Shown here: positions 1-5,145 of the stretch, piece by piece
Numbering within the stretch: the first letter of the stretch is position 1
How the letters are laid out: every line of letters starts with the position of its first letter
Virus record (IMG/VR): IMGVR_UViG_2617270959_000010
Length of the DNA stretch: 12,481 nucleotides
Strand: one strand, 5' to 3'
Source: a virus
Taxonomy: Duplodnaviria; Heunggongvirae; Uroviricota; Caudoviricetes
Made by a program: the position numbers and the translations under genes
The notes under the pieces: model-generated
What the model was told of the DNA's origin: nothing
Database searches by the model: none
Seen by the model: only the letters and a program-made list of their open reading frames with translations

Positions 1-270
1 ATGAAAGAGCTTGAGTTAAAGAAACCGATTACCGCTCATGGCGAGACACTCTCCGTACTGGAGTTTGATGAGCCCACCGGGAAAGATGTCCGCGAGCTGG
101 GGTATCCCTACCAGATGAATCAGGATGAGTCCGTCAGACTTCTGGCGCATGTGGTATCGAAATACATTGTGCGGCTGGCGAAAGTGCCGCAAAACTCTGT
201 CGACCAGATGTCTCCGGCAGACCTGAATGCAGCGGCGTGGCTTGTGGCTGGTTTTTTCCTCCAGGCCTGA
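1..270 (+). CDS. Phage tail assembly chaperone (lambda gpG-like / Mu gp41-like), 0-frame product; may be 5'-truncated by the window edge
   Basis: 89-aa ORF immediately upstream of and overlapping-coupled to the tape-measure gene; slippery heptamer 4 codons before its stop; position typical of chaperone genes. Upstream context not visible. Confidence 0.55.
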   Translation: MKELELKKPITAHGETLSVLEFDEPTGKDVRELGYPYQMNQDESVRLLAHVVSKYIVRLAKVPQNSVDQMSPADLNAAAWLVAGFFLQA

Positions 271-419
271 CGGCTGAATACCTCACTGATCGCTTCTTTG
301 ACTGCGCCAGCTACTGGCGCATTAATCCCTTCGAATTGCTGAATATGCCGATCAGTGAAATTCCCTTGCTGGTCAGTCAGGCAAACAGGATAGAGCAGGA
401 GAAACGCACACATGGCTGA
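1..419 (+). CDS. Tail assembly chaperone -1 frameshift fusion product (gpGT-like), about 139 aa if the slip occurs at 252-258
   Basis: Overlapping ORFs 1..270 (frame 1) and 237..419 (frame 3) in the -1 relationship; the frame-3 ORF ends at 419, overlapping the tape-measure ATG at 412. This is the conserved arrangement upstream of tape-measure genes in tailed phages. Confidence 0.45.
252..258 (+). other. Candidate programmed -1 ribosomal frameshift site (slippery heptamer T_TTT_TTC)
   Basis: Frame-1 codons GGT TTT TTC at 250-258 give an X_XXY_YYZ heptamer at 252-258; the -1 frame (frame 3) stays open from 258 to the TGA at 417-419. Confidence 0.5.
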
Positions 420-2253
420 ATTTGAGCTTAAGGCGTTGATCACCGGTGTCGACAGGCTTTCTCCCGCGCTGTCGAAAATGCAAAAGAAAATCCGGGGATT
501 TAAACGCCAGGCGGAAGAAGCGTCACAGGGTGGGCTGGCGCTTGGTGGCGGACTGGCAGCGGGTCTGACGCTTTCCCTGAAATCTTATGCCGATCAGGAA
601 AACGCCGCCACCGGGCTGAAAGTCGCCATGATGGATGCGAATGGCGAGGTTGGAAAGAGCTTTCAGGACATCAATAAACTGGCTATTGGCCTGGGTAACC
701 AGCTACCCGGTACAACGGCTGATTTCCAGAACATGATGCAGATGCTGGTGCGTCAGGGGATCCCGGCAGAAAACATTCTGGGTGGTGTGGGTAAAGCGAC
801 AGCTTATCTTGCGGTACAACTGAAAAAAACACCGGAAGCGGCTGCTGAGTTTGCTGCAAAGATGCAGGATGCTACCGGAACGGCGTCAGAAGACATGATG
901 GGGCTGTTCGACACTATCCAGAAGGCGTTTTATCTGGGCGTTGACGATACCAACATGTTGTCCTTCTTCACTAAAACCAGTTCTGTTCTGAAGATGGTGA
1001 ACAAGGACGGTCTTCAGGCTGCACAGAGCCTTGCCCCCATCAGCGTCATGATGGATCAGATGGGGATGAACGGGGAGTCGGCAGGTAATGCCCTGCGAAA
1101 AGTTATCCAGTCCGGATTAAGCGTTAAGAAAATCAGGGACGTCAATAAAGTCATGGCCCGCCAGAAACTCGGGGTACAGCTCGATTTTACTGACGGCAAA
1201 GGAAGTTTTGGCGGTCTTGATAACATGTTCAGGCAACTGGCAAAGCTGCGAAAACTGACCGACGTTAAGCGAACAGGTGTACTTAAGGCAATATTTGGTG
1301 ATGATGCCGAAACCCTTCAGGTGGTCAATGCACTAATCGATAAAGGAAAGGATGGCTACGATCAGATCCAGCAGAAGATGAATAAACAGGCCAGCCTGAA
1401 TAAACGTGTTCAGGCCCAGCTTGGTACGCTGTCCAACCTGTGGGAGGCAATGACGGGGACCGCAACTAACGGCCTTGCGGCTATTGGCGGCGCATTTTCT
1501 GGTGACGCCAAAAATATCACGCAATGGCTGGGGGAGTTAGGGGAAAAATTCACGAAGTTTGCGGATGAAAATCCCCGGGTTATTCGCGGCGTCGTCGGGC
1601 TTGCTGCCGGTCTTGCGATTCTGAAACTGGGATTGATGGGCGTTGGCGGGGCCATCAGTATTGTCAGCAGGATCATGTCGATGACGCCGATTGGAATGAT
1701 TGCGACGGCGATAGCCCTGGCTGCGGGATTAATTATCACTAACTGGGATGTTGTCGGACCTTATTTCAAGAAGCTCTGGGAAACCATTGGTCCTTATTTT
1801 GAGGCTGGCTGGGAACTTCTGAAGAAGGTTTTTGCCTGGTCGCCGCTGGGGATGGTAATCAATAACTGGGGACCGGTTGTTAAGTGGTTTCAGGATATGT
1901 GGGACAAGCTGAAGCCGATTATTGAATGGTTTACCGACAGTTCCGGTGACACGGTCGATGCCATTAACTCTGCGCAGTGGGGCGCGGGTGCTTATGATGC
2001 TTATGGGACGGGATTCCCGGCGCGGGGATACACACCTTATCCGGCGATGGATCCGGCTCAGGCAAACAACGCCTCCGATGCCACAGGCCCGAATCCCTTC
2101 ATGATTAACAAAGCTTCTGCGCCAAAAGTTGACGGTGAGATCAAGGTCTCTTTTGTGAATTCGCCTCCGGGTATGCGGGTTATGGAAACGCGATCCAGCG
2201 GTATCGACGTGAATCACGACGTTGGCTACACCCGATTTGGTATGGGGGGCTGA
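412..2253 (+). CDS. Tail tape measure protein
   Basis: 613-aa ORF; N-terminal region predicted helical (A/L/K/Q-rich), central Gly/Ala-rich hydrophobic segment, C-terminal Trp-rich repeats (WDVVGPYFKKLWETIGPYFEAGWELLKK...WGPVVKWFQDMWDKL); located between chaperone and baseplate genes. Confidence 0.8.
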   Translation: MAEFELKALITGVDRLSPALSKMQKKIRGFKRQAEEASQGGLALGGGLAAGLTLSLKSYADQENAATGLKVAMMDANGEVGKSFQDINKLAIGLGNQLPGTTADFQNMMQMLVRQGIPAENILGGVGKATAYLAVQLKKTPEAAAEFAAKMQDATGTASEDMMGLFDTIQKAFYLGVDDTNMLSFFTKTSSVLKMVNKDGLQAAQSLAPISVMMDQMGMNGESAGNALRKVIQSGLSVKKIRDVNKVMARQKLGVQLDFTDGKGSFGGLDNMFRQLAKLRKLTDVKRTGVLKAIFGDDAETLQVVNALIDKGKDGYDQIQQKMNKQASLNKRVQAQLGTLSNLWEAMTGTATNGLAAIGGAFSGDAKNITQWLGELGEKFTKFADENPRVIRGVVGLAAGLAILKLGLMGVGGAISIVSRIMSMTPIGMIATAIALAAGLIITNWDVVGPYFKKLWETIGPYFEAGWELLKKVFAWSPLGMVINNWGPVVKWFQDMWDKLKPIIEWFTDSSGDTVDAINSAQWGAGAYDAYGTGFPARGYTPYPAMDPAQANNASDATGPNPFMINKASAPKVDGEIKVSFVNSPPGMRVMETRSSGIDVNHDVGYTRFGMGG

Positions 2254-2334
2254 TACCCCGCTTAAACACGGGTTTTGTCGTTTAGCAGGTTCTTGGTAGG
2301 ATTAGTCCGATACTTTAATGATGGGAATAGGGAT

Positions 2335-3012
2335 ATGAAAGTCTTAACAATTTATTCAGTTGTCGGCATGGCTCTTTTACTCGGGGGATGTACCTCTCCG
2401 AAGTACAATTATTTACCAAAAACAGAAAATTATAGTGAACCTCCTGTAGGAAGCATTAATACAGCTTATGTCGGTGATTCAATGATTAAGCAGGGGGTGT
2501 CACAGAGGTTTGAAGGTCTGAAGGTTAATGCTCCTGCGAGAATTTCCTGGGCGTATACGATCACTCCGGGGATGCTGAAAAAGGTTGGTGAGGATAACAA
2601 GGCTGATTATTACTTTCTCACAAACGGTGCTGATTCAGCCAATGTGGAAAAGGCAGCCCTTGCCGATATGTGGCAGGGCATCATGGTAGAAAAGAAAAAG
2701 AATGCCTTATGTGTAATAACAGTTTTCGGTGTTACCAACTGTGAAACTAACATGCCTATCGAAAAGGTTACTCTGAATATCAGTGGTGATTCATCTTTCC
2801 AGCAAGCTCTGCTTTACAACGGAAGGGTCGGAAACAAAATCAACATTGGATATCGTGAATTTTCATCGAATACAGCACGCCCGGCCTTCAACAACGATGT
2901 TGAGTATGATCTCGCGGAGTCTAAAACAATTGGCTATAAAGGGGCTAAATTCGAAGTACTTGATGCGAGTAACCAAAGCATAAGGTATCGGGTAATAAGT
3001 AACTTTAGATAA
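2335..3012 (+). CDS. Predicted outer-membrane lipoprotein of unknown function (moron); start revised to ATG 2335
   Basis: ORF track starts at a TTG (2275), but the ATG at 2335 gives a typical signal peptide MKVLTIYSVVGMALLLGG-C with lipobox LGGC and Thr at +2; GGGA 8 nt upstream; visibly AT-richer than flanking tail genes; followed by a strong intrinsic terminator. Confidence 0.7.
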   Translation: MKVLTIYSVVGMALLLGGCTSPKYNYLPKTENYSEPPVGSINTAYVGDSMIKQGVSQRFEGLKVNAPARISWAYTITPGMLKKVGEDNKADYYFLTNGADSANVEKAALADMWQGIMVEKKKNALCVITVFGVTNCETNMPIEKVTLNISGDSSFQQALLYNGRVGNKINIGYREFSSNTARPAFNNDVEYDLAESKTIGYKGAKFEVLDASNQSIRYRVISNFR

Positions 3013-3026
3013 GCGATAATTTAATG

Positions 3027-3050
3027 AAACCCGCTTCGGCGGGTTTTTTT
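3027..3050 (+). terminator. Rho-independent terminator after the lipoprotein gene
   Basis: AAACCCGC-TTCG-GCGGGTTT hairpin followed by T7 tract (3044-3050), 15 nt after the lipoprotein stop. Confidence 0.75.
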
Positions 3051-3065
3051 ATATCCGGAGTTTAT

Positions 3066-4295
3066 ATGACGTGGAAAGACAGACTTCAGGACGCGTCATT
3101 TCGCGGCGTGCCGTTTAAGGTTGAAGAAGAAAGTGCGGGAACCGGTCGTCGTGTGGAAACGCACGAATACCCGAACCGCGACAAACCCTATACCGAAGAC
3201 CTGGGGAAAATCACTTTCCGCCCGTCCATCACGGCTTATGTGGTGGGAGATGACTGCTTTGACCAGCGCGATCGCCTGATTGACGCGCTGAATAAACCCG
3301 GTCCCGGCACGCTTGTCCATCCGACTTACGGTGAGCTGAAAGTCTGTGTTGACGGAGAAGTTCGGGTCAGCACATCGAAGAGTGAAGGGCGTATTGTCCG
3401 CTTTGACCTGAAGTTTGTCGAAGCAGGAGAACTCTCTTACCCCACATCAGGTGCGGCGACGGCGCAGACGCTGATGTCATCCTGTTCTGCACTGGATGAC
3501 TGCATCAGTGACAGCTTCAGCGGTTTCAGTATCGATGGTGTGGCGGATTTCGTGCAGAACGACGTTATCGGTAATGCCAGCATAATGCTGGGGTATGTTT
3601 CTGATGCGATGAAAGTGGTGGATTCTGCCGTATCGGATGCCGCCAGGCTGTTGCAGGGGGATATCTCGGTACTTCTGCCGCCGCCATCGTCAGGCAAAAA
3701 TTTCGTTGAGCAGGTGCAGAAAATGTGGCGTACCGGGAAACGCCTTTATGGTAACGCCAGCGACCTGGTCACCATGATCAAAACGCTTTCCGGTGTCAGC
3801 CTCGGCAGCGATCTGCAACCGCGCGGCGTCTGGAAAACGGATAGTAAAACCACCGCCACGGCGACGCAGCAGAGTAACGTGGTTGCCAGCACCCTTCGTA
3901 CGACCGCAATCAGCGAAGCGGCGTATGCCGTCACCCGATTGCCTGCGCCAACAACTTCCGCGGTGATGCAGAATGCCGCAGTGGAGCAGGCAACAACACC
4001 TGCGCAGAGCACTGGCTGGCCTTCCGTCACGCATCCGGCACTGAACAATGCACCGGCGGTGAAAAACACGGTTGACCTGCCGACGTGGGAAGAACTGACT
4101 GACATTCGCGACACACTGAATACGGCAATTGATAAGGAGTTGTCCCGTACAACCAGTGATGCGCTGTTTCTGGCGCTGCGCTGGGTGAAAGCAGATCTGA
4201 ATGCGGATATCAACACGCGCCTTGAACAGTCTGCACGGATCATTCAGCGCACACCGGATGAGGTTTTACCCGCGCTGGTGCTGGCGGCGACCTGA
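3066..4295 (+). CDS. DNA circularization protein N (Mu gp43-like); start revised to ATG 3066
   Basis: N-terminus MTWKDRLQDASFRGVPFKVEEE...GRRVETHEYPNRDKPYTEDLG matches my recollection of the conserved Mu N N-terminal domain; GGAG 5 nt upstream of ATG 3066; the ORF-track start at 3024 would place the terminator hairpin inside the CDS. Confidence 0.8.
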   Translation: MTWKDRLQDASFRGVPFKVEEESAGTGRRVETHEYPNRDKPYTEDLGKITFRPSITAYVVGDDCFDQRDRLIDALNKPGPGTLVHPTYGELKVCVDGEVRVSTSKSEGRIVRFDLKFVEAGELSYPTSGAATAQTLMSSCSALDDCISDSFSGFSIDGVADFVQNDVIGNASIMLGYVSDAMKVVDSAVSDAARLLQGDISVLLPPPSSGKNFVEQVQKMWRTGKRLYGNASDLVTMIKTLSGVSLGSDLQPRGVWKTDSKTTATATQQSNVVASTLRTTAISEAAYAVTRLPAPTTSAVMQNAAVEQATTPAQSTGWPSVTHPALNNAPAVKNTVDLPTWEELTDIRDTLNTAIDKELSRTTSDALFLALRWVKADLNADINTRLEQSARIIQRTPDEVLPALVLAAT

Positions 4296-4390: not shown

Positions 4391-4912
4391 ATGAACGATA
4401 ACGTCACGCTACGGGTAAATGGCCGGGAGTGGAATGGCTGGACATCGGTGCGCATCGGTGCCGGTATTGAACGGCTGGCGCGGGATTTCAGCGTGGAGAT
4501 CCCCCGCCAGTGGCCGGGAGATGAGGGTATCACCACGCTTCAGCCGCGCATTAAAAATGGTTCAAAAGTGGAAGTGCTGATTGGTGATGAGCTGGTGATC
4601 ACCGGCTGGGTGGAGGCGACCCCCGTTCGTTACGATTCCCGTTCGGTCAGCACCGGTATTGCCGGACGTAGTCTGACTGCTGACCTGATTGACTGTGCAG
4701 CCGAACCGACACAGTTTAACGGACGATCGCTGGTACAGATTGCGCAGGCGCTTGCTGCGCCTTTCGGCATTGAGGTGGTGAACAGCGGTGCGCCGTCGGG
4801 TGTTATTCCTGATGTCCAGCCTGATCACGGTGAAACGGTGATCGAGGTGATTAACAAAATACTCGGTCAGCAGCAGGCGCTGGCTTATGACGACCCGCAC
4901 GGCAGTCCGTGA
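4391..4912 (+). CDS. Baseplate hub-like protein (Mu P/gp44, P2 gpD-like), N-terminal-type domain only; 173 aa, much shorter than typical hubs
   Basis: N-terminus MNDNVTLRVNGREWNGWTSVRIGAGIERLARDFSV...IAGRSLTADLIDCAA resembles what I recall of gpD/gp44 hub N-terminal domains; position after the gp43-like gene. Confidence 0.5.
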   Translation: MNDNVTLRVNGREWNGWTSVRIGAGIERLARDFSVEIPRQWPGDEGITTLQPRIKNGSKVEVLIGDELVITGWVEATPVRYDSRSVSTGIAGRSLTADLIDCAAEPTQFNGRSLVQIAQALAAPFGIEVVNSGAPSGVIPDVQPDHGETVIEVINKILGQQQALAYDDPHGSP

Positions 4913-5145
4913 CGCTGACCCGGGCGGGTATCGTGGTGGACGGCGGCGGGAAAACGCTCACGTTTCGCAATGCGCCCAGAGCACGTTTTGAAATGGACCT
5001 GGAAGTGACCGGACAGGTGAAAGACCTGTGCGACTCCGGCGGCACCACCATGTCAGCGATGCGGCTTGCCTATAACGGGCATCGTCACAGAGAGAACGGT
5101 CAGGGCAGTAACACCGACAAACCTGATAAAGCGATGGAGGCATGA
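4909..5145 (+). CDS. Small ORF (78 aa) with GTG start overlapping the upstream stop (GTGA) in the -1 frame; possible hub/spike remnant or small baseplate protein
   Basis: GTG 4909 overlaps TGA 4910-4912; ends ATGA-coupled to the GP46-like gene. Together with 4391..4912 it occupies only about 0.75 kb where Mu-type modules usually carry hub plus spike genes. Confidence 0.35.
   Translation: MTLTRAGIVVDGGGKTLTFRNAPRARFEMDLEVTGQVKDLCDSGGTTMSAMRLAYNGHRHRENGQGSNTDKPDKAMEA

What the first reader, a model, noticed from the sequence alone, without database searches (positions are those of the whole stretch)
237..419. Programmed -1 frameshift site T_TTT_TTC in the tail assembly chaperone gene
The heptamer at 252-258 lies 4 codons before the stop of ORF 1..270, and the -1 frame remains open to position 419, overlapping the tape-measure start. 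This reproduces the conserved G/GT-type chaperone frameshift of tailed phages and is read directly from the sequence. It would yield a short product of about 89 aa and a fusion of about 139 aa at a fixed ratio.
Basis: partly seen in the sequence, partly recalled or inferred. Interest (0 to 1): 0.45.

Follow-up and report, generated by a model that had tools for sequence, protein, structure and literature searches.

The report
Tail chaperone frameshift site, P2-type
This is a genuine but ordinary example of the programmed -1 ribosomal frameshift that tailed phages use to make a short and a long tail-assembly chaperone from one gene; here it sits in an SfV-like prophage of E. coli/Shigella and has simply never been annotated.

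Summary
Codons GGT TTT TTC put the heptamer T_TTT_TTC (252-258) in the right phase. The 0 frame stops at 268-270. The -1 frame stays open to TGA 417-419 and overlaps the tape-measure ATG (412) by 8 nt. The products would be 89 and 139 aa.

A heptamer alone means little: in-phase heptamers occur at chance rate in this window. Comparative evidence decides the case. Of 106 distinct related sequences, 104 keep an in-phase U-rich heptamer at the same Phe-Phe codons. The extension keeps its length (50-57 aa) and a motif, while the 0-frame stop moves (9, 30 or 63 nt downstream). Codon periodicity switches frame at the slip site. Six relatives have no start codon that could begin the extension.

The upstream gene belongs to Pfam Phage_TAC_7, as does P2 gpE. 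P2's proven E/E+E' shift (ggT_TTT_TTG, 91/142 aa, same 8-nt overlap with gene T) is in register with this one. No stimulatory structure lies 5-9 nt downstream, as reported for P2. The ratio of products cannot be computed.

Verdict: interpretation supported. It is a new, unannotated member of a well-known kind. Low interest.

The parts
1..270 (+). Tail assembly chaperone gene, 0-frame product of 89 aa (the short, presumably abundant form; equivalent to P2 gpE)
   Evidence: Pfam PF10109 Phage_TAC_7, E=3.6e-16, residues 4-86. RefSeq names it 'phage tail assembly protein' in E. coli C1 at 100% identity, directly after the tail tube gene.
252..258 (+). Slippery heptamer T_TTT_TTC (U_UUU_UUC), phased ggT TTT TTC
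   Evidence: Conserved in phase, as TTTTTTC or TTTTTTT, in 104 of 106 distinct related sequences. The preceding codon is GGT, CGT, AAT or AGT, always with wobble T. It is in register with P2's annotated slip site ggT_TTT_TTG.
268..270 (+). 0-frame stop codon TGA, ending the short product
   Evidence: The distance from heptamer to 0-frame stop differs between lineages (9, 30 or 63 nt), whereas the -1 extension length is constant.
258..419 (+). -1 frame extension of 53 codons plus TGA. Joined to residues 1-86 it gives the 139-aa fusion (equivalent to P2 gpE+E')
   Evidence: Variable sites in 271-411 fall 24/14/39 on -1-frame codon positions 1/2/3. The synonymous fraction of codon differences is 0.59 in this frame against 0.10 and 0.09 in the other two. 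The motif [YF]W[RK][ILV][ND]P..(IS)..A.R[IV] is conserved. Six relatives have no start codon before the conserved residues.
303..321 (+). 8-bp hairpin UGCGCCAG-CUA-CUGGCGCA, 44 nt after the heptamer. Its role is unknown and it is not at stimulator distance
   Evidence: It is invariant in 10 SfV-subgroup sequences, including 4 unforced wobble positions; only loop base 311 varies. The Hamiltonella relative keeps 5 of 8 pairs with one compensatory change. It is absent in the ST64B/SfIV lineage.
397..401 (+). Shine-Dalgarno AGGAG of the tape-measure gene, lying inside the end of the extension
   Evidence: Read from the sequence. Conserved in alignment A1.
412..2253 (+). Tail tape measure protein gene. 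Its ATG overlaps the stop of the -1 extension by 8 nt (ATGGCTGA)
   Evidence: Pfam PF10145, E=9.9e-27; annotated as such in records. P2 has the same 8-nt overlap (ATGAGTAA).

Best explanation
A programmed -1 ribosomal frameshift in the tail assembly chaperone gene of an SfV/SfII/SfI-type prophage (Mu-like contractile tail). Most ribosomes read 1-270 and release an 89-aa chaperone. A minority slip back one base when the two tRNA-Phe sit on UUU (P site, 253-255) and UUC (A site, 256-258). They re-pair on UUU/UUU (252-257), continue at CCU (258) in the -1 frame, and end at UGA 417-419 on top of the tape-measure start codon. The result is a 139-aa fusion. By analogy with lambda G/GT and P2 E/E+E', both forms bind the tape measure protein through the shared N-terminal domain, and the extension recruits the tube subunit. 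The low slip rate would set the ratio of short to long form. Shown here: the anatomy, protein-family membership, coding status of the -1 frame, lack of independent initiation, and conservation. Inferred: that slippage happens on the ribosome, its rate, and what the two proteins do.
For: Anatomy.
Context: the gene is PF10109 and the next gene is a tape measure; the tube gene is immediately upstream in identical and near-identical records.
Conservation: 11 enterobacterial relatives at 75-99% identity keep the heptamer, its phase and the -1 stop position, while the -1 frame upstream of the heptamer closes at varying points.
Distant lineages: ST64B, SfIV, phiP27 and F1055 (about 41% identity) have in-phase T_TTT_TTT at the same Phe-Phe codons although their 0 frame runs about 20 codons further. 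Burkholderia phage BgVeeders33 has G_GGT_TTT_TTC. A Hamiltonella prophage has ggT_TTT_TTC.
Survey: 104 of 106 distinct sequences from 191 loci have the heptamer; extensions are 50-57 aa.
Selection: third-position excess moves from pos%3=0 (1-251: 31/19/75) to the -1-frame third position in 271-411 (24/14/39) and back in the tape-measure gene. The synonymous fraction is 0.59 against 0.10 and 0.09. Within-population polymorphisms agree, with 5 of 6 sites in 271-411 on -1-frame third positions.
No independent start: L007-L011 and L014.
X position: it stays T under four different preceding amino acids.
P2 comparison: annotated -1 shift at ggT_TTT_TTG, gene position 249-255, products 91/142 aa, 8-nt stop/start overlap with gene T. 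PF10109 ends at the slip codon in both proteins. The profile alignment keeps the slip sites in register. The extension profile against P2 E' gives hhalign E=4.8e-4.
Motif: U_UUU_UUC and U_UUU_UUU are shift-prone in E. coli at 0.12% and 0.33% unstimulated, against 0.046% background, and 7.6% and 10.2% with a pseudoknot (PMC4066793 Table S3).
SfV itself, an isolated phage, has the identical site.
Against: No experiment exists for this element, and no record annotates a slippage. There is no stimulatory hairpin or pseudoknot at 5-9 nt: the fold of 259-300 has z=+0.13, and the weak 4-bp stem at 264-275 is not conserved. No SD-like element is readable upstream. The bare motif gave only about 0.12% in a reporter, so the native rate is unknown and could be very low. 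Two of 80 near-identical contigs carry a synonymous T252G that spoils the X position. The extension does not reach Pfam's P2 E' model PF06528. This particular prophage copy has lost part of its baseplate genes, so the site may no longer be in use in this genome.
Confidence: 0.88

Rival explanations
1. The shift occurs during transcription. RNA polymerase slips on the T6 (T7 in the ST64B lineage) run and adds one U to a fraction of mRNAs, which ordinary ribosomes then translate into the fusion.
For: The site is a homopolymer run (T6 here, T7 in the ST64B, SfIV and phiP27 lineage). Conservation of the wobble T before the Phe codons lengthens the run and fits this model equally well. UUUUUUU is avoided in all three frames of E. 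coli genes, possibly because of transcriptional slippage (PMC4066793). One contig with T8 shows the run is indel-prone.
Against: From general knowledge, productive transcriptional slippage in E. coli usually needs runs of about 9 or more A/T; six is short. The homologous P2 site is TTTTTTG and is annotated as a translational frameshift (PMC3091744). The motif is a perfect tandem-slippage heptamer in phase in every lineage. The sequence cannot separate the two models.
Confidence: 0.06
2. There is no recoding. 237-419 is an independent small gene (as one GenBank record calls it), or 271-411 is a non-coding spacer, and the heptamer is coincidental.
For: ON470584 annotates a stand-alone 'hypothetical protein' at the equivalent of 237-419, and phrog_32181 collects such calls. 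In-phase heptamers occur at chance frequency in this window. RefSeq leaves 271-411 unannotated.
Against: The GTG at 237 is absent in most relatives. In L007-L011 and L014 there is no ATG, GTG or TTG in the -1 frame before the conserved residues, and no SD precedes 237. The stretch evolves as coding sequence in the -1 frame only. The heptamer is conserved at 40% protein identity and in P2.
Confidence: 0.02
3. The site is a real recoding signal in the family but is dead in this copy. The prophage is a decaying remnant, and the intact heptamer merely reflects recent descent.
For: Relative to E. coli C1, the window lacks about 0.86 kb spanning the end of the gp44/P-like gene and the start of the gpV-like baseplate gene. 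Only 4 of 5426 complete E. coli genomes share this junction.
Against: This concerns present use, not what the element is. The slip site, extension, hairpin and stop/start overlap are base-for-base those of phage SfV. The chaperone and tape-measure ORFs are intact.
Confidence: 0.5

Closest known systems
Bacteriophage P2 gpE / gpE+E' -1 frameshift (Christie et al. 2002; Xu, Hendrix & Duda 2004; as summarised in PMC3091744)
   Same: Same Pfam family for the N-terminal domain (PF10109), which ends at the slip codon in both. The slip is at the homologous codons after V-x-G (ggT_TTT_TTG in P2, ggT_TTT_TTC here; gene positions 249 and 252). Product sizes are 91/142 aa against 89/139 aa. The fusion's stop overlaps the tape-measure ATG by 8 nt in both. 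Neither has a downstream hairpin at stimulator distance (PMC3091744).
   Different: The Z base is C (Phe) rather than G (Leu). The extension does not reach Pfam's P2 E' model PF06528; only a weak profile match exists (E=4.8e-4, probability 32%). The surrounding tail module is Mu-like (DNA_circ_N, gp44-, gp46-, gp47- and gp48-like genes), not P2-like.
Phage lambda gpG / gpGT -1 frameshift (Levin et al. 1993; Xu et al. 2013, 2014; reviewed in PMC5009743)
   Same: Same gene position (between the major tail gene and the tape measure gene). Same logic of a short product plus a -1 extended product from an X_XXY_YYZ heptamer near the end of the first ORF. Neither product is expected in the virion.
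   Different: The heptamer is G_GGA_AAG in lambda. Lambda is a siphovirus. No sequence similarity was detected here (no lambda G or T family among the Pfam hits). Lambda's ratio of about 30:1 cannot be transferred.
Phage Mu gp41 tail assembly chaperone (-2 frameshift; Xu et al. 2004, cited in PMC2628397 and PMC5009743)
   Same: Same position in a syntenic Mu-type tail module (sheath, tube, chaperone, tape measure, DNA circularisation protein N, baseplate genes). Mu gp41 also touches PF10109 weakly (E=2.5e-5, just below the 25-bit cut-off).
   Different: In Mu the frame that reaches the tape-measure gene is +1/-2; its -1 frame closes early. Here the +1 frame is open only over 227-277 and the -1 frame is used. 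Mu gp41 is 144 aa and belongs to PF23746, which the window protein does not hit.
Stimulated bacterial -1 frameshift cassettes (dnaX, IS3/IS911 transposases)
   Same: Tandem-slippage heptamer. U_UUU_UUC is itself used by some IS elements (PMC4066793).
   Different: Those have a hairpin or pseudoknot 5-9 nt downstream and often an SD-like element upstream, and they reach tens of percent. Here neither element is present.

Membership tests
Tail assembly chaperone programmed frameshift (lambda G/GT and P2 E/E+E' class) | The gene pair lies between the tail tube / major tail gene and the tape measure gene | tested here: met
   The tape measure gene (PF10145) starts at 412. The tail tube gene ends at the chaperone ATG in SfV, vB_EcoM-689R6 and E. 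coli C1. The tube gene itself lies outside the window.
Tail assembly chaperone programmed frameshift (lambda G/GT and P2 E/E+E' class) | The upstream ORF is a tail assembly chaperone family protein | tested here: met
   PF10109 Phage_TAC_7, 59.4 bits against a cut-off of 25, E=3.6e-16.
Tail assembly chaperone programmed frameshift (lambda G/GT and P2 E/E+E' class) | The second ORF overlaps the end of the first in another frame and has no initiation signal of its own | tested here: met
   The -1 frame is open 129-419. No start codon precedes the conserved residues in L007-L011 and L014. No SD lies upstream of GTG 237.
Tail assembly chaperone programmed frameshift (lambda G/GT and P2 E/E+E' class) | A correctly phased slippery heptamer lies in the overlap | tested here: met
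   ggT TTT TTC at 250-258.
Tail assembly chaperone programmed frameshift (lambda G/GT and P2 E/E+E' class) | The slip site and the extension are conserved among diverged homologues, and the extension is under protein-level selection | tested here: met
   104 of 106 distinct sequences; lineages at about 40% identity; periodicity and synonymous fraction.
Tail assembly chaperone programmed frameshift (lambda G/GT and P2 E/E+E' class) | Both products are made, at a low fusion-to-short ratio, and both are needed for tail assembly | not testable with these tools
   Needs a reporter assay, western blot or mass spectrometry, and phage genetics.
P2 gpE / gpE+E' family | The slip is at the homologous codon at the end of the PF10109 domain | tested here: met
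   PF10109 ends at residue 86 (window) and 85 (P2). GGTTTTTT is identical in both. The slip sites are in register in hhalign.
P2 gpE / gpE+E' family | The extension is the P2 E' domain (Pfam PF06528 Phage_P2_GpE) | tested here: inconclusive
   No PF06528 hit at E<=10 for the window extension or any of 11 family members. The extension profile against P2 E' gives hhalign E=4.8e-4 and probability 32% over 42 columns, with shared W..P.EL..M.(L/I)(T/S)E(L/I).
P2 gpE / gpE+E' family | The stop of the fusion overlaps the tape-measure start | tested here: met
   ATGGCTGA here and ATGAGTAA in P2, 8 nt each.
Mu gp41-type chaperone (-2 frameshift) | The extension is encoded in the +1/-2 frame, and the protein carries the Gp41_Mu domain PF23746 | tested here: not met
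   The +1 frame is open only over 227-277. The window protein hits PF10109 only. Mu gp41 hits PF23746, and its +1 frame reaches the tape-measure gene.
Stimulated -1 PRF cassette (dnaX / IS3 type) | A stable hairpin or pseudoknot begins 5-9 nt after the heptamer | tested here: not met
   259-300 folds at -5.4 kcal/mol, z=+0.13. The 4-bp stem at 264-275 loses pairs at variable positions 272 and 275. The first strong hairpin starts 44 nt downstream.
Stimulated -1 PRF cassette (dnaX / IS3 type) | An SD-like element lies 6-17 nt upstream of the heptamer | tested here: not met
   235-246 reads gcgtggcttgtg with no GGAG, GAGG or AGGA, and the stretch varies among relatives.

The most novel reading that the evidence does not exclude
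The 142-nt stretch between the chaperone's stop and the tape-measure start, which only the rare shifted ribosomes translate, may be a selected RNA fold and not merely coding sequence. It holds a hairpin 44 nt downstream that is invariant even at wobble positions. In the predicted fold, the slip site itself (UUUUUCCU, 253-260) pairs with the tape-measure Shine-Dalgarno (AGGAGAAA, 397-404). If real, this fold could tune the frameshift rate from a distance, couple tape-measure translation to chaperone translation, or shield the ribosome-poor spacer from Rho or RNase E.
Probability: 0.12. Interest if true: 0.45.

Novelty: new member of a known kind. Interest (0 to 1): 0.17.

Why it matters
The biology is textbook: the conserved tail-chaperone frameshift. 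The practical value lies in annotation. About one in six complete E. coli genomes (918 of 5426) carries this module. RefSeq and GenBank either leave 271-411 blank or call a spurious stand-alone ORF, so the 139-aa fusion, probably essential for tail assembly, is missing from protein databases and from Pfam and PHROG family definitions. The site also shows that a Mu-type tail module can use the P2-type -1 solution rather than Mu's own -2 shift.

Tried and rejected
(1) Apparent 'naturally fused' proteins P0001-P0006 from the protein search. Their frames switch at scattered places on low-coverage singleton contigs, so they are indel artefacts and not evidence.

(2) Two E-value classes among viral contigs suggested an in-frame fused lineage. 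Inspection showed normal T6/T7 sites. Only two singleton contigs read through, one with T8 and one with another indel.

(3) Repeat proteins P0123-P0125 in the exhaustive search are false positives caused by summed weak repeats.

(4) Stimulatory structure at 5-9 nt: none found. Downstream folds were compared across lineages: z=-4.6 here, -3.1 in P2, -3.7 in BgVeeders33, but about 0 in ST64B and SfIV and +1.4 in Hamiltonella. No universal element exists.

(5) Solved structures: no PDB relative.

(7) Literature: no paper in the held library describes this site in SfV, ST64B or phiP27. Xu et al. 2004 and Christie et al. 2002 are not held, so I could not check whether SfV is in their tables. The conserved prophage clusters of Sharma et al. 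2014 do not include this one.

(8) NCBIfam has no model for the fusion or the extension.

Full report
WHAT THE WINDOW IS. The first 2.2 kb are 97.5-97.8% identical to the Shigella serotype-converting phages SfV, SfII and SfI and to E. coli phages SKA5 and vB_EcoM-689R6. The first 450 nt occur in 918 of 5426 complete E. coli genomes. ORF 1-270 is a Pfam Phage_TAC_7 protein (PF10109, E=3.6e-16) and ORF 412-2253 is a tape measure protein (PF10145). Downstream lie Mu-type tail genes: DNA_circ_N, gp44-, gp46-, gp47/J- and gp48-like. In the records, the tail tube gene ends exactly where the chaperone ATG (window position 1) begins.

THE OBSERVATION. The frame-1 codons are GGT(250) TTT TTC(258) CTC CAG GCC TGA(268-270). 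T_TTT_TTC at 252-258 is therefore a correctly phased tandem-slippage heptamer. The -1 frame is open to TGA 417-419, and the tape-measure ATG is at 412, so the two overlap in ATGGCTGA. The short product is 89 aa and the fusion is 86+53 = 139 aa. The finding's start at 237 is just a GTG in the -1 frame that most relatives lack.

IS IT MORE THAN CHANCE? The heptamer alone is not. The window's genes contain 16 in-phase X_XXY_YYZ heptamers in 3808 codons, against 14.9 expected. The 252 site is, however, the one with the longest open -1 frame, it sits at the end of its gene, and its -1 frame closes on the next gene's start. Comparative data settle the matter.

(i) Eleven enterobacterial relatives at 75-99% protein identity (Edwardsiella, Buttiauxella, Citrobacter, Atlantibacter, Scandinavium, Kluyvera, Pantoea and others) all keep TTTTTTC in phase and the same -1 stop. 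The -1 frame upstream of the heptamer closes at varying places (129, 198, 204, 207, 222, 231).

(ii) Variable alignment columns show third-position excess in frame 1 up to the heptamer (31/19/75). In 271-411 the excess moves to the third position of the -1 frame (24/14/39), and it returns to frame 1 in the tape-measure gene. The synonymous fraction of codon differences in the extension is 0.59 in the -1 frame against 0.10 and 0.09 in the other two. Polymorphisms among 35 distinct near-identical viral contigs behave the same way.

(iii) In L007-L011 and L014 no ATG, GTG or TTG exists in the -1 frame before the conserved residues, so the extension cannot be initiated on its own.

(iv) ST64B, SfIV, phiP27 and F1055 (about 41% identity) carry in-phase T_TTT_TTT at the same Phe-Phe codons. 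Their 0 frame continues about 20 codons further there, yet the -1 frame again runs 52 codons to the tape-measure start. Burkholderia phage BgVeeders33 has G_GGT_TTT_TTC, and a Hamiltonella prophage has ggT_TTT_TTC.

(v) Over 191 loci (106 distinct sequences), 104 have the in-phase U-rich heptamer. The extension is 50-57 aa in nearly all of them, while the 0-frame stop lies 9, 30 or 63 nt downstream depending on lineage. The codon before Phe-Phe is GGT, CGT, AAT or AGT: the amino acid differs but the wobble base is always T, which points to selection on the X position of the heptamer. The two exceptions have a synonymous T252G.

(vi) Five more distant stand-alone calls of the same frame (35-50% identity to the extension) were found by the exhaustive search. 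Four of them begin with '(G/R/S)FF', meaning a T-run at the same place.

WHAT IT IS RELATED TO. Phage P2's record annotates gene E (91 aa), E+E' (142 aa) and the -1 shift site. The P2 sequence reads gtc ggT TTT TTG at gene position 249-255, against gct ggT TTT TTC at 252-258 here. The peptide context is VVGF-L against VAGF-F. PF10109 ends at the slip codon in both proteins. The fusion's stop overlaps the tape-measure ATG by 8 nt in both. A family profile aligns with P2 E+E' over 118 columns with the slip sites in register, though only weakly (E=0.011). The extension-only profile against P2 E' gives E=4.8e-4 and probability 32%. No member of this family reaches Pfam's E' model PF06528. Homology is therefore established for the chaperone domain and the slip site, and only suggested for the extension.

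Mu is the model for the surrounding tail genes but differs at this point. Its -1 frame closes early, and it is the +1/-2 frame that reaches the tape-measure gene. This agrees with the literature (-2 in Mu: PMC2628397; PMC5009743).

MECHANISM. The best-supported reading is tandem -1 slippage of the two tRNA-Phe on U_UUU_UUC. In E. coli reporters, UUUUUUC gave 0.121% with no stimulator, 0.89% with the IS911 stimulator and 7.6% with the IS3 pseudoknot. UUUUUUU gave 0.326, 0.446 and 10.2%. P2's UUUUUUG gave 0.118, 0.247 and 0.765%. Lambda's GGGAAAG gave 0.277, 3.8 and 43%. Background was 0.046% (PMC4066793 Table S3).

I found no stimulator at the canonical place. The fold of 259-300 has z=+0.13, a 4-bp stem at 264-275 is not conserved, and no SD-like element lies upstream. 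The same absence is reported for P2 and its Burkholderia relatives (PMC3091744). The rate in the native context is therefore unknown, and the 'fixed ratio' is inference by analogy with lambda, where it is about 30:1 (PMC5009743). Transcriptional slippage on the T6/T7 run cannot be excluded from sequence alone. I rate it unlikely because the run is short.

A SIDE OBSERVATION. The spacer that only shifted ribosomes translate is unusually structured: 259-360 has z=-4.6. The hairpin UGCGCCAG-CUA-CUGGCGCA (303-321) is invariant in ten SfV-subgroup sequences, including four unforced wobble positions, although 39 of 47 wobble positions of the extension vary. Its only variable base is in the loop. The Hamiltonella copy keeps 5 of 8 pairs with one compensatory G-C to A-U change.

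The RNAalifold consensus has 94.9% of cells paired, and 5 pairs changed on both sides against 1.3 in shuffles. That structure was derived from the same alignment, so the comparison is biased. One of its helices pairs the slip site (253-260) with the tape-measure Shine-Dalgarno (397-404). P2 and BgVeeders33 also have strong hairpins 50-60 nt downstream, but ST64B, SfIV and Hamiltonella do not. This is not a general feature of the family, and I do not claim a function for it.

STATE OF THIS COPY. Relative to E. coli C1, the window has a 780-nt insertion after the tape-measure gene (2241-3020). It also lacks about 0.86 kb spanning the 3' part of the gp44/P-like gene and the 5' part of the gpV-like gene, with 20 nt shared by both flanking alignments at 4886-4905. 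Only 4 of 5426 genomes share that junction. This prophage is probably tail-defective. The slip site, extension, hairpin and overlap are nonetheless base-for-base those of phage SfV.

NOVELTY. The kind is well known (Levin 1993; Christie 2002; Xu 2004). For this phage group, no GenBank or RefSeq record annotates the slippage, and I found no paper in the held library that describes it. I could not read Xu et al. 2004, which may list SfV. I file it as a new, unannotated member of a known kind, of low interest apart from annotation.

Noticed in passing
window 303-321: The 8-bp hairpin UGCGCCAG-CUA-CUGGCGCA inside the extension is nucleotide-invariant in 10 diverged SfV-subgroup sequences, including 4 unforced wobble sites; only loop base 311 varies. 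This suggests selection on RNA or DNA structure beyond coding. It lies 44 nt after the heptamer, too far for a classical stimulator, and is absent in the ST64B/SfIV lineage.
   Followed up: partly
window 253-260 with 397-404 (consensus fold of 245-425): The predicted conserved fold of the ribosome-poor spacer pairs the slip site UUUUUCCU with the tape-measure Shine-Dalgarno AGGAGAAA. Overall 94.9% of cells are paired, and 5 pairs show compensatory changes against 1.3 in shuffles, but the structure was derived from the same 10-sequence alignment.
   Followed up: partly
window 2241-3020 (ORF 2275-3012, + strand): A 780-nt insertion between the tape-measure and DNA-circularisation genes, relative to SfV and E. 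coli C1. It encodes a 245-aa protein of unknown function (phrog_1353, E=2e-98; no Pfam or PADLOC hit). It is present in 55 of 5426 complete E. coli genomes. Possibly a moron or accessory gene.
   Followed up: partly
window about 4886-4912 (ORFs 4391-4912 and 4909-5145): A deletion of about 0.86 kb relative to E. coli C1 removes the C-terminal half of the gp44/P-like baseplate hub gene and the N-terminal part of the gpV-like gene. 20 nt (4886-4905) are shared by both flanking alignments, consistent with a short direct repeat at the junction. Only 4 of 5426 genomes share this junction. The prophage is probably tail-defective.
   Followed up: partly
window 8815-11556 (- strand) and 12005-12481 (- strand): An O-antigen glucosylation (serotype-conversion) cassette: GtrA-like flippase (11194-11556, PF04138), GtrB-like family-2 glycosyltransferase (10283-11197, PF00535) and a 488-aa type-specific Gtr candidate (8815-10281; no Pfam, PHROG hits only). 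It is followed by a PBP-family gene (PF01161), probably a host gene. ARAGORN finds no tRNA in the window.
   Followed up: partly
L073 and L104 (viral contigs), equivalent of window 252: Two of 80 near-identical contigs carry a synonymous T252G (GGG TTT TTC/T) that breaks the X position of the heptamer. These may be decaying prophages or tolerated weaker sites.
   Followed up: no
L008, L012 (Citrobacter, Kluyvera), L021 and L108-L119 (Burkholderia phages), equivalent of window 249-258: These relatives have two overlapping in-phase heptamers, G_GGT_TTT followed by T_TTT_TTC, because the preceding codon ends in G and the Gly codon is GGT.
   Followed up: no
database level (phrog_32181; ON470584 CDS URC08943.1; P0122, P0126-P0129): Gene callers sometimes call the -1 extension as a stand-alone 53-70 aa 'hypothetical protein', and a PHROG family is built from such calls. 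RefSeq PGAP leaves the stretch empty. The real 139-aa fusion is absent from the protein databases searched.
   Followed up: yes
P0001-P0006, L016, L017, L120, L121: Low-coverage metagenome or viral contigs with indels give spurious single-frame 'fusion' proteins. One of them has T8 instead of T7 in the slippery run.
   Followed up: yes
window 3041-3050 (start of the DNA-circularisation gene): A second in-phase G_GGT_TTT_TTT run lies near the 5' end of ORF 3024-4295. Its -1 frame closes after 22-23 codons, so there is no sign of recoding.
   Followed up: no
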